From Octopus vulgaris (lineage: Eukaryota), in contig OX597814.1 in the NCBI GenBank assembly GCA_951406725.2, positions 150,598,001 through 150,662,000 of the forward strand: a stretch of 64,000 nt of DNA, read 5' to 3'. Made by a program: the position numbers and the translations under genes. The notes under the pieces were generated by a model. It saw nothing but the letters and a program-made list of their open reading frames with translations. It searched no databases and was not told the DNA's origin. This document shows, in pieces, positions 3,080-15,642 of the stretch (positions within the stretch are counted from its first letter, which is position 1; every line of letters starts with the position of its first letter).

Positions 3080-3275
3080 GTTAATGCAAACAAGAAAGCA
3101 CAAAAACACACAACAACGCGAGGACGTGGAACAAATATAGTATTATTGGACGCTCAGGAAAGAAGGAGGGTTTAACGTTTCGAGCGGAGCTCTTCGTCGG
3201 AAACATAGGAGAAGGAAAGATCCAGAGAAGGGAAGACAGAGGAAAAAAATCGCCAACGGTACACACGAGGTCACA
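3080..3275 (-). mobile_element. ~200-bp HHR-bearing element (family H1) in (TA)n; HHR at 3170-3204
   Basis: Sense strand GUUU-CCGACGA-A-GAGC(UCC)GCUC-GAAACGU-U-AAAC. Homologous to 39259-39455, 57462-57660 and 60690-60887. Confidence 0.75.
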
Positions 3276-4869: not shown

Positions 4870-5241
4870 GTTCCAGTTTGGTCATATTGCCGGTAGAATT
4901 TAAGTGAGTAGCGAGTTACTACCTGTAAGCTTATCCCTAAACTTTCCATAATCTTTCAAGTGCTCAAAATCCTTCTGATTAATCTTTTCTGTTCCTAAGA
5001 GGTAAATTTTCTGTAGAAGCTCTACCGTTCATTCCATTTCATTCTCCATTGACCATTTGTCTATATCATTACTCACAGTTCCTAATGAACCAATTATTAC
5101 AGATACAACCATCTCAGTTTTCATATTACGAATTCTTACAATTTCAAATTACGAGGTATCGTATCTCTTTTTTTCTCTATTCTTTTCTGTCCTTGTATCT
5201 CTATTGTTTTCGGTCCTTACAATCCTTGAATCAAACGGACA
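4870..5241 (-). pseudogene. Dong/R4 3' fragment
   Basis: Minus strand reads CPFDSRIV...FEIVRIRNMK...VIIGSLGTVS...ELLQKIYLLGT, homologous to 7075-7310. Confidence 0.8.
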
Positions 5242-5276
5242 TTCTTCTTCTTCTTCTTCTTCTTCTTCTTCTTCTT

Positions 5277-5369
<93 letters not shown>

Positions 5370-5857
5370 GAGTGAGAGAGCAGTTCATGCCATCAAAGTG
5401 ACACTGGGGTAAAATATACGAAGCCCAATACACCCATCATGACTACACGTCTGATAAAGGTACACCAGGCACATGCATCTCAACCATATGTGCGCGACAT
5501 GGTGATCTCATATCAAGATAAACAGCACATGACCTTGCAGGTGGGGCCCAGTTAGAATTTTCTTCAGGTTGAGTAGCCCATCCCGCTCACAAGGTCCCTG
5601 AATAAGGGTTGTTTAAGGATGTTGAAAGAACCACCCATGTTTCCAGAAGTGAACTATTCAAACCCCAAAGAATCCCTCTCAACACATGGCTATGATGCTC
5701 CCCCACTACTTCTGCTCGTGATCAGAGATGCACATATCGTCAGCCACTAAGGGACATACTCAACTGGTTAAGGTCAAACAACTGACAAGCAAATCTGTGG
5801 TATTGAGCAGAATATTTGCTGTAGCCCATCTTTTATACCAGTAATTATTATTATTAA

Positions 5858-5902
<45 letters not shown>

Positions 5903-5990
5903 CATTATTATTATTGCTGTTATTGTCATTATTGTTGTTGTTGTTGTTATTATTGCTGTTGTTATTATTATTCTCATTATTATTATTGTA

Positions 5991-6130
5991 AGGCGACAAG
6001 ACGAATATAAAGGAGATTGGAATAGAATGCCTAGTAGAACTATAAAGCTGAAAAGAACGGATAGGCTGCAGGTAGCAAGCCCGCTACCCATGCAAAATTC
6101 CAGGAGTTCCAACAAAACCTGTGATAAAAA
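5991..6130 (+). mobile_element. Very short Dong/R4 3'-end copy in (TAA)n
   Basis: Matches 7233-7398 with internal deletions (gaatataaaggagattggaataga...ccaacaaaacctgtga); followed by TAA repeats. Confidence 0.8.
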
Positions 6131-8134: not shown

Positions 8135-9118
<984 letters not shown>

Positions 9119-9440
9119 GTAGATAGATAGATAGATAGATACAGGAGCAAACAATTCACCAGAAAAATAATTCACGAAAAATTAATTTGCGAAGATATCA
9201 TTAATTCTGTTATTATCCAATGTAACTATTTTTAAAAAAATGATAATAACAGAATCAATAATATAGATGATTGCAGTCCCCAAAAAATCGATCAATTTTA
9301 ATATATATATATATATATATATTGTTATATTTCGGAATGGTCATATTGCCAGTTTAGCCAATAAAAACACACGCACTATATATTTGGTGTTATTTTGCTT
9401 CAGTGATATTTATTTTTTACATTAATCTTAATCTTATTTC

Positions 9441-9485
9441 GGCCAAAGTTCTTTCGTCACACTCCTGTGACCGCATCAGTGGTCC
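9441..9485 (-). ncRNA. Minimal type-I hammerhead-like motif in the PLE pseudo-LTR (3' copy)
   Basis: Sense strand GGACCA-CUGAUGC-G-GUCACA(GGAG)UGUGAC-GAAA-GAACU-U-UGGCC. Perfect 6-bp stem II, bulged stem I, A9->C variant. PLE pLTRs are known to carry minimal HHRs. Confidence 0.6.
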
Positions 9486-10006
9486 TTTGTTTTCTTCTCA
9501 CTTACTTGTGTCTCTCCTTACTAACAGTCAGCCATTTTGTATTTCTATTGTATGTCTTCATTTGCGCATGCTTATATCTCTATGTGCGTCTATGTTTATT
9601 TAGTGTGTGTGTGGGGGGGATGCCTGTAATATTTGTATCTTCTGGTTATATACATTCTTGTAATTTGTATTTTGTTTTTGTTGTTGTTGCTTTTGTTCTA
9701 ATTTTGTTCATGTGTTTACATCCACCCATTATCATCATTACATATGCTTGTATGTATGTATAACAACAATATTAGTAATAATAATAATAAATCTAATCGA
9801 AAAAAAAAAAAAAAAAAAAGAATATACATATACACATATATATATACATACACATACATATACATATATATATATATATACATATATACACACACATATA
9901 TACACATATACATATACATATATATACACATATACATATATATAGATATTCATTTCTATTTCTTTAATTACCTGTGTATTTATTATGTTTGCAGGATCCA
10001 CTATTG

Positions 10007-10231
10007 TCATATGTTGTGGTGTGCGCTATTGCTCCATTCTAGTTTTCTATTCAGGCTAGGTTTATTTTCTATTATATGTGTAGCTTCTGTAATTTGTCTA
10101 ATTGTTGCATCTGTTCTATGTGTGGACAATATCTTAATCTCTATGTTATTGATTGATCCCCCGTGTTCTTGTTCGGCGTGTTGGTACAGAATCGATGAGC
10201 TTTTACCTTCCTTGAGTTGTCTCCAATTTTT
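10007..10231 (-). CDS. C-terminal half of the PLE GIY-YIG endonuclease, separated from the main ORF by a 1-nt frameshift in an A5 run
   Basis: Reads [21 protein letters not shown]...[22 protein letters not shown], supplying His residues, the catalytic Glu (ITEA) and the Asn (PSLN) of GIY-YIG. Removing one base from the T5 run at 10227-10231 fuses it in frame to ...ERVNE. Confidence 0.88.
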
Positions 10232-13200
10232 CATTCACCCGCTCACCAATGCTTCTTGCAGTTTCCCCTACGTATGTTACTGTCTTGTTACTGCATTGTC
10301 CCTCTATACATCTTATACTATAGACCACATTTCTGGCTTTACAGTTCGTTTGTGGGCTAAATCTACATACAGTGCAATAGTTATCCGTACAGAGAGTTCT
10401 ACTAAAAGGATAGCTTCTACCAATTATAGATCTGATAGGGTTGCCTGGCTTTTCAACAACCTTAATTCTTAGTTTAAGTTTATCTAGGGTCCTTCTAAAG
10501 CGGTACGCTAGTTCACCTCCAGGGGTGGTGTCAACGAACATGACACTCTGGTATTTATGGCTATCATACCAAGAGTTGGCCTTCCCTATTTTCTTTTTTG
10601 TCCTTTCTATAGTGTTCCATGACTTGTTCCTATAGAGTGGGCAAATCCCATTCCTATCATTACATAATATATTATCAAATTTTTTCATGGCTCCTTTGTA
10701 TACTCTGATCCTTTCTTTATGGCTGTAACCTGAGAACTGCATGCGGTGAATGAAATACTGTATGTGTCTCTTTAATTCTGTAGGCTCGCACATGCGTGAC
10801 ACATTTCTCATTATTCTGACGAGGTCTGCCATCGAAATATTGAATTTGGCATTGCCCGCAATGGCTGAGTTCCGGTGGATCAGGTATTTTGAGGCCATAG
10901 GTTTTGCATAGTATGAATGAAGGATTTGGGTTTGGGTTTTATTTTTCACAATTTCTAGCCAGAGTTCAGTGTCTAGTACTGGTAGTCTATGGTTGGGGTG
11001 TTTAGTGGGGTAGTCTATTGTGACCTTAATACTCTGGTGGATGGAGTTAGCTATTTGCTGGATGCTCTCCATAGTATTAGTTTCTATTACTATATCAACA
11101 GTACTCTCTTGTGGGGGTGCCTTTACTACTATATTGATATCATCAACATAGCGAGAGTACATGTTTACGAGTATGGATTTCTGCAGTAGGCATTCTTTAA
11201 GCCTTCTGTCCCACCATACCATGAAGAGGTTGGCCACATCACCAGCGATACTAACACCGATGGCTGCCCCCTCGTCCTGGGCATATATTTTATTATTAAA
11301 TTTAAATGTGTGGCCTTTTAGGGTAACTCTTATACTAGCTCCTAGTGCATGTGCGATCATTTTCTTTACCTGATGGACATTTGCGGGGCTCCGTATGGCT
11401 CTGGTCCATCCGCGCCATCTTTCTATATGTGTCTTCCTAGCCATAGAAGTAATTGTAGGCGGTCTACCTCTTAAACATCTACTGGGGCAGAAACTACTAA
11501 GGTTATGTTTATCTAAGTATTCACTATTATATGTCAGTCTAAGTAGGAGGCCCAGTTCTTCTGTGTCGACATTACAGAACTCCACCTGGCTCTCGTTGAT
11601 CATCTCCACGCACTTCTCCACTGCAAAATCTACGTCAATCGATGGGTATAGGGATACCACATCCATGCTACCTACTATACATCCTGTCAAGTCACAAGTT
11701 TTGTTACAGTCACTGATCCTGCTTAGGAGATCTTCTGTGCTGTCACACACATCAGGTGACATCCTGATTATAGGGCGTATGATCATTGAGAGGAAGTAGG
11801 AGATTCTGTAATTGCTAGCGATATTCGCTCCACAGACTGGTCTTGTTGGTGGTCCTGCTATAGGGTCAGTAAAACCTTTATGGTCCTTGCGAAGTCCATA
11901 CAGTGCCGGGATATCATTGTTCCAGGCTTGGAAATTCTTTGCAGTACGTTTCTGAGGTCCCAGAACAATTGTCCACATCATCATGTGGGCATTGAGGACC
12001 TTTTCTCTCTCCTCATGCGCCTGTACAGTTGTTACTTTTGTATTGGCGATATGAGGTTGCATTGCCTGGATGTAGTTCGGTAAGCTGTCTATTGACATCC
12101 TGCCGGACTTATCCGTGGGAAGGCATATCACCTCTCCGTTCCTCGTGCGCTGAATGAGCTTCTGTAGGCCACATGCAGGTTTAATCCCTAGTTGTTGGGC
12201 ATCTGTCTTATTCTGTCTCTGTCTCTTAATGTATAATCCTAAAATCTGTCTAAGTTTGGTCCTAGCTATAGTGAACTGTGCTTCCATGTGGTCATTAGTA
12301 CGTCTTGGGATGTATACTCTTTTGTTGAAGGGTAATGTTGTTGGATAAATTCGGTTCATGCAGTAAGTTTTGTCGCATACGTTGAAGAATTGAGTGTCAA
12401 AGGGATGGGTATACATGTCAATGGTCTCTCTAGGGTTATCTTCATTATCGTTACTGTTTCCAACATCAGCCTTCCTATTATTATTATCACCATTACCACT
12501 ACTACTACTACTAGTATTCCTATTACCACCACAATTATCACTACTATCCTTATTACTACTTCTACTGTTACCATCACCACTACTACTACCACTATTATTG
12601 TTATTACCTTTATTCCTACCATTGCCATTATTACTATCATCGCTAGTGATATATTCATTGTTCCTGTTTCTGGTATATGTGTTGTTTATATTAGTGTTGG
12701 GTTTTATGTCTGTCTGTTGGTCCCTGTCAATCCCCCTGTTGCGGTCGTTATTTTTGTTCCTATGAGTATTGTTATCTGTTTCAAGTCCGCTGACTCCCTG
12801 TCCAAGGATCCTGTTGCATTCAACTTTATTCTCCATCGTGACCCCTATGACACAACTTTTATTCGTGTCTTTGTGACTATGGCTATCTGTGTGTGTGTTT
12901 GTGTGTCGGTTCTCCCTATAATTGTTGTTGTTGTTGCTGTTGTATACGATTTTTCTCTCTCTGTTTGTGTTTTTGTTTTTGTATCTATTGTTTGTGTCTA
13001 TGCATACATTTTTTCTATTGTTATTGTTGTTGTCGCTGTTAGGGTTGTTGTTGTTGTTGCCTCTGTTAGGGTTCGTGTTGCTTTTGTTGCTACGGTTGTT
13101 ATTGTTGCGGTCATTATTGTTTGTGTTGTTGTTGCTGCGGTTAGTGTTTTTCGCGTTGTTGTTGTTGTCGCAAGTGTTGTTGTCATAGTATCTATTTAAA

Positions 13201-13931
13201 TTCCAACGTATTTTTTTGAACGACTTTTCAATCTCGGACAGGCATTTGATGGTATTCACTTTACTATACACTGCATACTTTGGTGGTAGTTGAAGTATCG
13301 ATATTTCATCTGGGTCCGTTGTTACTCCCCCATAGATGTTTGCTTCATTGTCTTTATTGAACTCTTCTGGTAGTAGCACATCTTCCATAATAATTCCATT
13401 TATTGTATCTGGATACTTCTGCTTTTCTTCCTTTGCGAGCTCATATTGACGTTTCTGTTTCAACCACGATAACTTCCTCTTAAAATGGATATTGCATTGG
13501 TGTATTACATGTCTGTTTTCTTCATATATTATATCCATTATTAAGGTTTTCTCCTTTCGTGTGGTGATACTTTTAATTTCTTTTAAAAATATACGTTTAC
13601 GCTTCTCTTGTTCGCTCAGCTCTCTGTATATTCTATTTCTTATATTTACCATTAGCGTCCTTTTTAGTCTTTCCGCTTGTCCGTTAGTGAGGTCAAGCCG
13701 TTTAACGTTGGCTGTGACCTTGTTGATACATATCCTGGACGAGACACATTGTTTTATAAAACGAAGCTGTTGCGTTGTCACAGTTTTCTTTAGGCAACAA
13801 AATATAGTGTTCTTCAGCATCTTGCAAGCCTGGCTGTGGCTCACGTTAGTACGTTTAAATATTTGTTGTGCAAGATTTTTTATGTGAAGTCGTGTGTTGA
13901 AACAGATATTGTTATATTTCGGAATGGTCAT
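10203..13931 (-). CDS. PLE polyprotein: N-terminal domain, Asn-rich linker, reverse transcriptase, Cys-rich linker, N-terminal part of GIY-YIG endonuclease
   Basis: 1242-aa ORF with a true ATG at 13931. PLE RT motifs [36 protein letters not shown] and YSRYVDDI; thumb region VLDTEL...YAKPMAS; linker C-x4-C-x2-C; GIY-YIG VVYSIRC-x4-C...[12 protein letters not shown]. Confidence 0.95.
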
Positions 13932-14696
13932 ATTGCCAGTTTAGCCAATAAAAACACACGCACTATATATTTGGTGTTATTTTGCTTCAGTGATATTTAT
14001 TTTTTACATTAATCTTAATCTTATTTCGGCCAAAGTTCTTTCGTCACACTCCTGTGACCGCATAGAACAGATGCAACAATTAGACAAATTACAGAAGCTA
14101 CACATATAATAGAAAATAAACCTAGCCTGAATAGAAAACTAGAATGGAGCAATAGCGCACACCACAACATATGACAATAGTGGATCCTGCAAACATAATA
14201 AATACACAGGTAATTAAAGAAATAGAAATGAATATCTATATATATGTATATGTGTATATATATGTATATGTATATGTGTATATATGTGTGTATATATGTA
14301 TATATATATATATATATGTATATGTATGTGTATGTATATATATATGTGTATATGTATATTCTTTTTTTTTTTTTTTTTTTTTCGATTAGATTTATTATTA
14401 TTATTACTAATATTGTTGTTATACATACATACAAGCATATGTAATGATGATAATGGGTGGATGTAAACACATGAACAAAATTAGAACAAAAGCAACAACA
14501 ACAAAAACAAAATACAAATTACAAGAATGTATATAACCAGAAGATACAAATATTACAGGCATCCCCCCCACACACACACTAAATAAACATAGACGCACAT
14601 AGAGATATAAGCATGCGCAAATGAAGACATACAATAGAAATACAAAATGGCTGACGGTTAGTAAGGAGAGACACAAGTAAGTGAGAAGAAAACAAA

Positions 14697-14741
14697 GGAC
14701 CACTGATGCGGTCACAGGAGTGTGACGAAATAACTTTGGCC
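14697..14741 (+). ncRNA. Hammerhead-like motif in the inverted PLE arm
   Basis: Same motif as 9441-9485 with one substitution in stem III (GAAA-UAACU-U). Confidence 0.55.
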
Positions 14742-14911
14742 GAAATAAGATTAAGATTAATGTAAAAAATAAATATCACTGAAGCAAAATAACACCAAAT
14801 ATATAGTGCGTGTGTTTTTATTGGCTAAACTGGCAATATGACCATTCCGAAATATAACAATATCTGTTTCAACACACGACTTCACATAAAAAATCTTGCA
14901 CAACAAATATT

Positions 14912-14949
<38 letters not shown>

Positions 14950-15047: not shown

Positions 15048-15605
15048 CCCTGTTCGAAGGTTTATAATGGACGCAGGTTGTGAGTCAAATAGCTAGCTTG
15101 AGGCGGTGGCCTCTTGGAGCTAATCAGCGACAGCTTTAGTCTTATATTTATAAGACTGCCATATTAGTATAGCGATAACTATTAATTTCCAGTAACGCTG
15201 CCGTAATCTCCTTTAGAGAGACTTAGTAATTTTAATATTTCTATTATTGAAAACAAGTGGATGTATTCCACTGAAACTAGGTAAATAGATTCTTCGAACA
15301 GGGACAGTCAGTAGCGACACCTGCTGGGTCTGACTACGCTGCATTGATAAAGGGCAAATACCCTGAAACATGTCTGCAGCTGTCTGACTGGCAGGATGAA
15401 GCGGCTGACCTCCCCGTTCGAAGGTTTATAATGGACGCAGGTTGTGTGTCAAATAGCTAGCTTGAGGCGGTGGCCTCTGGGAGCTAATCAGCGACAGCTT
15501 TAGTCTTATATTTATAAGACTGCCATATTAGTATGGCGATAACTATTAATTTCCAGTAACGCTGCTGTAATCTCCTTTAGAGAGACTTAGTAATTTTAAT
15601 ATTTC

Positions 15606-15610
<5 letters not shown>
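15048..15610 (+). mobile_element. Retrozyme-like / non-autonomous PLE: about 1.55 tandem copies of a 364-nt unit with one HHR, flanked by (TA)n
   Basis: ~199-bp direct repeats at 15048-15246 and 15412-15610 with only a few mismatches. HHR lies in the unique part. TA runs on both sides. No ORF. Confidence 0.8.
15338..15380 (+). ncRNA. Minimal type-I hammerhead ribozyme, U3-A8 variant
   Basis: GCUGCA-UUGAUAA-AGGG(CAAAUA)CCCU-GAAACAUGUC-UGCAGC. Perfect 6-bp stem I, 4-bp stem II, palindromic ACAUGU stem III, GUC cleavage triplet. Confidence 0.85.

Positions 15611-15642
<32 letters not shown>

What the first reader, a model, noticed from the sequence alone, without database searches (positions are those of the whole stretch)
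9321..14915. Very young PLE whose architecture records a tandem or circular template and a template switch inside the ribozyme core
Seen: unit length 4587 nt. The 3' ends run past the unit into the start of the ORF, by different amounts on the two arms (the right arm is ~54 nt longer). The inversion junction has a 3-nt microhomology (CAT, 14061-14063) that falls inside the HHR core, so the 5' pLTR lacks its CUG. I could find only about two substitutions plus homopolymer/microsatellite slips between the ~800-bp arms. Inference: two outward-facing 3' ends were primed in one (TA)n target, and the family is probably still active.
Basis: partly seen in the sequence, partly recalled or inferred. Interest (0 to 1): 0.75.

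Follow-up and report, generated by a model that had tools for sequence, protein, structure and literature searches.

The report
Young octopus Penelope retrotransposon, textbook layout
This is a recent but likely disabled copy of a Penelope-like jumping gene in an octopus-type genome; its mirror-image ends and uneven tails are the layout already described for these elements, and the join that falls inside its self-cutting RNA motif is probably chance.

Summary
The structure is in the sequence as described. The unit is 4587 nt with a 158-nt direct pLTR. An 855-nt inverted arm joins at a 3-nt CAT overlap inside the hammerhead core, and its tail is 52 nt longer. Both ends lie on (TA)n. It is an endonuclease-bearing Penelope-like element of Neptune/Nematis type; the nearest protein (98%) is named Octopus vulgaris by its source. 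This layout is the published norm (PMC3846280, PMC8557442, PMC2377424), the tail is explained by two internal RT start sites (PMC11167929), and the scan has noted such ends before on other DNA. New here: both 3' end positions recur in public contigs of the family. A 3-nt overlap arises in 4.8% of random joins, and two other head-to-head joins lie outside the core. The arms suggest about 0.4 Myr (0.05-1.5). Unproven: reads across the junction, polymorphism, present activity, a circular template. Ordinary; low interest.

The parts
9301..9322 (.). Left (TA)n target run; the last 4 nt can be read as element or as target
9319..9476 (-). Part of the 3' pLTR shared with the 5' pLTR; ends about 22-26 nt into the ORF start (short 3' end)
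   Evidence: 158 nt, 100% direct repeat; the same end recurs as a loose end on TA at 13906 in 20 contigs of run X4
9440..9485 (-). Minimal type-I hammerhead motif: core at 9479, extra base before a 6-bp stem II, 2-bp stem III, predicted cut 9446|9445; has C at position 9 and U at position 17
   Evidence: descriptor scan; stems I and II in the fold (z -0.96, not significant alone); no Rfam match; 65-79% of family contig depth has C17
9793..9971 (-). Predicted GT-AG intron in the 3' UTR holding the microsatellite and T tract; kept in both arms (14210-14389 in the right arm)
   Evidence: motif scan only; splicing not tested
10007..10234 (-). Out-of-frame C-terminal half of the GIY-YIG endonuclease (two His, RQxxE, N)
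   Evidence: three-frame translation; these residues are nearly invariant in alignment A1 but absent from the first row
10227..10231 (-). Frameshift: T run one base longer than in family contigs
   Evidence: 98-100% of contig depth in 4 of 4 runs lacks the extra base
10203..13931 (-). Main ORF, 1242 aa: Asn-rich stretch (about aa 200-500), RT motifs (aa 606-931), CxxxxCxxC linker finger (aa 1181), first half of the GIY-YIG domain
13854..13905 (-). ORF segment copied as the tail of the right arm
   Evidence: long 3' ends recur at 13850 (21 contigs, X1) and 13853 (4 contigs, X3)
13906..14063 (-). Truncated 5' pLTR; begins inside the hammerhead core, lacking C3-U4-G5 and the 5' strand of stem I
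14061..14063 (.). Head-to-head junction with a 3-nt overlap and no palindrome
   Evidence: chance rate 4.8%; no spanning contig displayed
14061..14915 (+). Inverted 5'-truncated copy: end of the EN domain, 3' UTR, full pLTR with hammerhead (core at 14703; G15.2 changed to U at 14731), 52-nt tail
14916..14945 (.). Right (TA)n target run

Best explanation
This is one insertion of an endonuclease-bearing Penelope-like retrotransposon with a near-complete copy joined head to head to a truncated copy, likely made when both nicked strands of a (TA)n site primed reverse transcription at two preferred internal start points and the two cDNAs were joined at a chance 3-nt overlap. Shown: the anatomy, the RT and GIY-YIG protein, the recurrence of both 3' end positions in the family, and the frameshift relative to family contigs. 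Inferred: priming from both strands; one cDNA started about 26 nt into the ORF and ran one unit plus 158 nt along a longer-than-unit RNA (tandem or circle, not distinguishable here); the other started about 78 nt into the ORF and stopped after 855 nt; microhomology-aided joining. This copy is probably inactive (split endonuclease, 5' pLTR cut short). The family has on the order of tens of near-identical full-length copies and far more stubs.
For: Same layout as Pen2a_Av, with direct pLTRs, an adjacent inverted pLTR, a one-sided tail and a pLTR reaching into the ORF (PMC3846280). It is the most frequent D. virilis form (PMC2377424) and the typical scheme in PMC8557442. In vitro, PAc nicks and extends both strands and starts RT at two internal sites that bound the tail; hammerhead mutants still insert (PMC11167929). 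Family contigs end on TA at both positions used here: 13906 in X4, 13850 and 13853 in X1 and X3. The arms agree at family-variable sites, including minority U17 in all three pLTR copies, pointing to one parent. Summed contig depth rises from the 5' ORF to the EN end 58-252 fold and to the pLTR 303-1000 fold in 4 of 4 runs, as expected for 5' truncation. No palindrome at the junction; overlap length within chance.
Against: No read or contig spanning the junction was displayed. No empty site was seen, so one target and any TSD are not shown. Priming from both strands is shown only in vitro, for a Poseidon-clade element without the linker finger. Loose-end tables were cut (24 of 1413 and 24 of 448 rows shown), so end and junction distributions are not a census. 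The frameshift is a one-base homopolymer change and may be a consensus error; P0001 has a different frameshift in the same domain.
Confidence: 0.62

Rival explanations
1. Programmed switch: the RT pauses or the RNA ends at the hammerhead core, so inversions form there preferentially.
For: The junction falls in a 7-8 nt conserved core, 2-5 nt upstream of the 6-bp stem II. Five contigs in run X14 show another head-to-head join at or near the predicted cut, so the ribozyme may shape some 5' ends.
Against: Single case, noticed after the fact. Other joins lie at 9388/9498 (X5) and 9441-9447/~9352 (X14), and 33 nt upstream of the core in relative L008. The junction is 28-31 nt from the cut. Hammerhead mutants insert normally in vitro (PMC11167929).
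Confidence: 0.1
2. Self-priming or fold-back on an antisense template makes the inverted arm from one nucleic acid (model of PMC3846280), or a single cDNA switches template; only one end is primed in the target.
For: Proposed for head-to-head PLE structures. It would also explain a retained intron, as predicted here.
Against: That model rests on palindromes at the junction; here there is a 3-nt overlap between unrelated parts of the element. The right arm ends at a recurrent family 3' end on TA and carries a tail the left arm lacks.
Confidence: 0.15
3. Two successive insertions: a second, truncated copy landed head to head at the 5' end of an older one, or repair joined two neighbouring copies after a deletion.
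For: The arms differ at 2 non-repeat sites and in the microsatellite. PLEs are reported to insert into or next to earlier copies (PMC6765202).
Against: The arms share the same alleles at family-variable sites. There is no TA or other target remnant at the junction. The layout is the common published one.
Confidence: 0.07
4. Assembly artefact (chimera or fold-back read).
For: The junction was not seen in displayed contigs. Such structures are known to trouble assemblies (PMC8557442).
Against: A fold-back would mirror the sequence next to the junction; here the arm mirrors sequence 3.9 kb away. The arms are not identical and end at two different, independently recurring 3' ends.
Confidence: 0.06

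Closest known systems
EN+ Penelope-like insertions with direct pLTRs, inverted 5'-truncated copy and one-sided tail (Pen2a_Av, PMC3846280; D. virilis Penelope Fig. 1C, PMC2377424; PMC8557442 Fig. 2 legend)
   Same: Partial tandem, adjacent head-to-head truncated copy, pLTR reaching into the ORF start, tail on one end only, Asn-rich ORF insert, hammerhead in the pLTR
   Different: Tail 52-56 nt rather than 30-40. The junction overlap is 3 nt with no palindrome (15 bp overlap in Pen2a). The Asn-rich stretch lies before the RT. The TSD cannot be read inside (TA)n.
Neptune and Nematis clades of C-terminal EN+ PLEs (PMC8557442)
   Same: RT followed by a CX2-5CxxC linker finger and a GIY-YIG domain with CCHH; (TA)n target, which that paper links to the linker
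   Different: The two clades could not be told apart, as no named reference sequences were available. The EN is split by a frameshift in this copy.
PAc, Poseidon element of Anolis (PMC11167929)
   Same: Two 3' end positions inside the ORF start; AT-rich target; hammerhead in the pLTR
   Different: PAc starts lie near +111 to +118 and its hammerhead overlaps the start codon. Here the ends are at about +26 and +78 and the core lies 135 nt upstream of the ATG.
Metazoan minimal hammerheads of PLEs (PMC4209133)
   Same: Extra base 5' of stem II, G10.1-C11.1 pair, long stem II, very short stem III
   Different: C instead of A at position 9 (also in relative L001) and U17 in this copy. The stem III loop is not palindromic in this copy.
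Recently active Penelope-like families of Octopus vulgaris (PMC13282606: 31 families, 336 insertions at <=2% divergence)
   Same: Young near-full-length PLEs are already counted in the octopus genome to which the nearest protein is assigned
   Different: The passages seen give no structure or sequence; whether this family is among the 31 was not tested.

Membership tests
EN+ Penelope-like element | Single ORF with PLE-type RT followed by a C-terminal GIY-YIG endonuclease | tested here: met
   RT motifs at aa 606-931; weak RVT_1 match, E 0.0015, below cut-off; relatives with RVT_1 and GIY-YIG matches; Atlas clusters at 0.93-0.96 with RVT_1, HTH_animal, GIY-YIG. The EN is present but split over two frames here.
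EN+ Penelope-like element | pLTR from a partial tandem that includes the ORF start | tested here: met
   158-nt direct repeat containing the ATG
EN+ Penelope-like element | Optional inverted 5'-truncated copy and one-sided tail | tested here: met
   both end positions recur in family contigs
EN+ Penelope-like element | Hammerhead motif in the pLTR | tested here: met
   Descriptor hits at 9479 and 14703. The same kind of motif lies downstream of the ORF on the sense strand in 5 of 40 related loci, against 0-2 hits in each of 10 random sequences of equal size; one more in 9 loci rescanned loosely. Rfam gave no hammerhead match.
EN+ Penelope-like element | Hammerhead self-cleavage | not testable with these tools
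   C9 and U17 depart from the usual core; that these lower activity is recalled, not tested
EN+ Penelope-like element | Spliceosomal intron retained in the pLTR/UTR | tested here: inconclusive
   donor and acceptor motifs at 14210 and 14389; no RNA reads laid
Neptune/Nematis type | CX2-5CxxC finger between RT and EN, plus CCHH | tested here: met
   finger at aa 1181; invariant Cys in A1; pattern in 97 of 120 homologues
Neptune versus Nematis | RT phylogeny with named references | not tested
   no named reference sequences came from any tool
Naiad / Chlamys | N-terminal EN, no canonical hammerhead | tested here: not met
   EN is C-terminal and a hammerhead motif is present
Hydra clade | No CCHH; CxCX5C linker | tested here: not met
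   CCHH residues and a CxxxxCxxC linker are present
Autonomous active copy | Intact ORF and a 5' pLTR long enough to hold the promoter | tested here: not met
   EN frameshift against family contigs (may be a consensus error); 5' pLTR only 158 nt, lacking the predicted intron; promoter position not mapped

The most novel reading that the evidence does not exclude
This young octopus family records the PLE cycle in vivo: both target strands are primed from two fixed sites about 52 nt apart, and the hammerhead fixes where many cDNAs end. Head-to-head joins would then pile up at the core and at the cut site, as hinted by this copy and by 5 contigs in run X14. That would be genomic evidence that the ribozyme acts during transposition, which the in vitro work on PAc did not find.
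Probability: 0.12. Interest if true: 0.55.

Novelty: new member of a known kind. Interest (0 to 1): 0.22.

Why it matters
How PLEs build their direct and inverted ends, and what the hammerhead does, are still open questions (PMC8557442, PMC11167929). One copy with the usual layout does not move them. The family is a fair data set: young, multi-copy, two recurrent 3' ends, and many stubs. A census of its junctions could test whether the ribozyme sets 5' ends. By itself the finding is an ordinary, probably disabled transposon copy.

Tried and rejected
Own-genome search: no genome is held for this window, so no copy census. Rfam at gathering score and at E<=10: no hammerhead; only microsatellite-driven miRNA matches and one snoRNA match, all below cut-off. 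Pfam on the full ORF: 0 families. Junction check: the '10128-14061 opposite strands' row is the natural continuity of the element caused by my choice of stretch, not the junction; no spanning contig was among the 32 pieces shown of 24,469. Presence/absence test on the left flank: the flank is itself a repeat and 9290-9333 was skipped, so no result. The depth fall at 9496-9520 was first read as a 5' boundary, then dropped as a probable edge effect. Expression: no RNA holder listed. An intron spanning hammerhead, ATG and tail (donor 26 nt upstream of the core, branch-like motif at 13851, AG at 13834): no matching donor-plus-acceptor set in 5 of 5 relatives examined, dropped. Link to the neighbouring 364-nt hammerhead repeat: alignment scores 23 and 25 against a shuffle mean of 22.8 and maximum of 33, no link. 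Look-ups of earlier findings by sequence: none. PMC5785218 on hammerhead variants is not held, so C9 could not be checked against it. Searches for a PLE twin-priming paper (3 listed, titles on other subjects) and for newer mechanism papers (2 listed) showed nothing beyond PMC11167929; listings only, and subscription journals are not covered. No supplements were opened; Fig. S2 of PMC11167929 and the family lists of PMC8557442 and PMC13282606 may bear on tail ends, clade and family identity.
Full report
Observation. A 158-nt direct repeat (9319-9476 and 13906-14063, 100% identical) is spaced 4587 nt apart. The stretch 14061-14863 is the reverse complement of 10120->9319, with two substitutions in non-repeat sequence, one extra base in the A/T run and three mismatches in the microsatellite. 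It continues 52 nt further, to 14915, as a copy of the ORF start down to 13854. The junction shares exactly three letters and removes C3-U4-G5 and the 5' strand of stem I from the 5' hammerhead. Both ends abut (TA)n.

What it is. The minus strand holds a 1242-aa ORF (13931->10203) with an Asn-rich stretch, RT motifs, a CxxxxCxxC finger and the first half of a GIY-YIG domain. A protein search gave 140 relatives, of which 120 were listed. The best, P0001, is 98% identical and named Octopus vulgaris by its source; the next are 43-51% identical. Relatives match RVT_1 and GIY-YIG, and the Atlas gives the same families. The linker finger pattern is in 97 of 120 homologues. By the criteria in PMC8557442 (passages) this is Neptune/Nematis type, not Penelope/Poseidon, Naiad or Hydra; I could not separate Neptune from Nematis. 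Twenty of 24 listed public runs, from 11 studies and five organism labels, hold at least half the sampled words.

The copy is probably broken. The ORF stops shortly after the YIG-like motif. The rest of the domain, with the conserved His, Glu and Asn columns of alignment A1, lies in another frame. In 4 of 4 runs, 98-100% of contig depth lacks one base at 10228-10229. So this is a private one-base slip in a T run, either real or a consensus error. P0001 is frameshifted at another place in the same domain. Of the two family variants at this site, the more abundant one by summed depth would read Asn where 62 of 62 homologues with the motif have His (58 of 120 lacked the motif). The 5' pLTR is only 158 nt. 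In D. virilis the promoter, start site and intron lie in the pLTR (PMC2377424, passages), so this copy likely lacks its own promoter (inference).

Age and family. Two substitutions in 652 nt, with the octopus rate used in PMC13282606 (0.0036 per Myr; passages), give 0.43 Myr (95% interval 0.05-1.5). Eleven of the 40 rows shown (160 in all) are sites where nearly all depth differs from the window, giving at least 0.29% or about 0.8 Myr. RT errors, assembly errors and population differences inflate both figures. The 5' ORF collapses into single contigs of 605 and 659 nt with 3 and 2 differences, at about 15 and 25-45 times the depth of single-contig joints in the same runs. I read this roughly as tens of near-identical full-length copies, though the tool warns that depth is not copy number. 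Depth rises 58-252 fold to the EN end and 303-1000 fold to the pLTR. The family is young; current activity is not shown. PMC13282606 already counts 336 recently active PLE insertions in 31 families in O. vulgaris.

The layout is the published norm. PMC3846280 (passages and Discussion) describes Pen2a_Av with two direct pLTRs, an adjacent inverted pLTR, a one-sided 31-bp tail and a pLTR that covers the first codons; it also reports Asn-rich inserts. PMC8557442 (passages) gives the same scheme as typical. PMC2377424 calls it the most frequent D. virilis structure. PMC11167929 (parts 1-2 of 4) shows that a PLE protein cuts and extends both strands, starts at two internal sites that bound the tail, and does not need hammerhead cleavage in vitro. 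The circular template is the proposal of PMC4209133 (parts 1-2 of 4), repeated in PMC6765202 (passages). bioRxiv 10.64898/2026.07.22.740005 (part 1 of 5) links retrozymes to PLEs. Earlier notes of this scan describe the same ends on other DNA; they are unchecked AI notes.

Two start points. Among the 24 loose-end rows shown of 1413, contigs leave onto TA at 13906 (X4, 20 contigs), 13850 (X1, 21) and 13853 (X3, 4). These match the two ends of this insertion within 0-4 nt, so the uneven arms reflect two recurrent family end points, as in PAc. That is the best new support for priming from both strands, but it remains an inference.

The junction in the ribozyme core. A descriptor finds the motif at 9479 and 14703, and on the sense strand downstream of the ORF in 5 of 40 related loci, against 0-2 hits in each of 10 random sequences; many loci are too short to include it. 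The motif has C9 in the family (no variant listed at 3%; also in L001) and U17 in this copy, where 65-79% of depth has C17. The fold shows stems I and II but is not better than shuffles. An overlap of 3 nt or more arises in 4.8% of random head-to-head joins. The 5' end lies 28-31 nt upstream of the predicted cut, so the long cDNA ran past the cut; this excludes only a cut linear monomer as template. Other joins lie elsewhere: 9388/9498 in X5, about 9441-9447 in X14, and 33 nt upstream of the core in L008. The X14 case, 5 contigs in 1 of 4 runs, could sit exactly at the cut but has ambiguous overlap; it is a lead only.

Is it real? No displayed contig spans the junction, and the flank test failed because the flank is a repeat. 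Against an artefact: the arm mirrors sequence 3.9 kb away rather than its neighbour, differs from the left arm, and ends at an independently recurring family end. I put an artefact at about 6%.

Verdict. A real, young, probably disabled PLE copy with the textbook structure. The most likely origin is priming from both target strands at two internal start sites, with a chance microhomology join (0.62). New member of a known kind; interest 0.22.

Noticed in passing
window 15048-15611 (+): About 130 nt right of the element lies a non-coding 364-nt unit in 1.55 copies (200-nt repeat, 97.5% identical), ending on (TA)n, with a U3-A8 hammerhead at 15344 (6-bp stem I, palindromic stem III). Retrozyme-like; no similarity to this PLE's pLTR beyond shuffles.
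   Followed up: partly
window 9447 and ~9352 (run X14): Five contigs flip from the + strand near the predicted hammerhead cut into the sense pLTR: a mini head-to-head join that may start at the cleavage site; overlap makes the point ambiguous.
   Followed up: no
window 10227-10231: The more abundant family variant at the EN 'RxxEH' position would encode Asn, against His in 62 of 62 homologues with the motif; much of the family may have spread with an impaired endonuclease.
   Followed up: partly
P0098: An annotated O. vulgaris leucine-rich-repeat gene isoform begins with 149 aa that are 98% identical to this RT: a likely exonised copy.
   Followed up: no
window 13931: 31 contigs in X1 and 42 in X5 share the ORF start but have a long A run instead of the pLTR directly upstream of the ATG (agreement 0.5); possibly a non-autonomous family using the same start region.
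   Followed up: no
window 14210-14389 and 9971->9793: Predicted 180-nt GT-AG intron with an internal microsatellite, retained in both arms.
   Followed up: partly
window 13851-13834 (-): A perfect branch-point-like heptamer followed by CAG lies just past the long 3' end; no matching donor-plus-acceptor set in 5 relatives, probably chance.
   Followed up: yes
L001 2497; L008 1-61 / 3126-3186; L002 1-936 / 5118-6053: Relatives: L001 has a U3-A8, C9 hammerhead just after an acceptor-like motif and ends on (TA)n; L008 has an inverted pLTR piece joined to its ORF; L002 has a 936-nt terminal repeat with 105-nt subrepeats.
   Followed up: partly
window 9145-9290: The left flank is itself a dispersed repeat (summed depth up to 55,000). 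The stretch ending near 8976 looks like a Tc1/mariner end (recalled motif, not tested).
   Followed up: no
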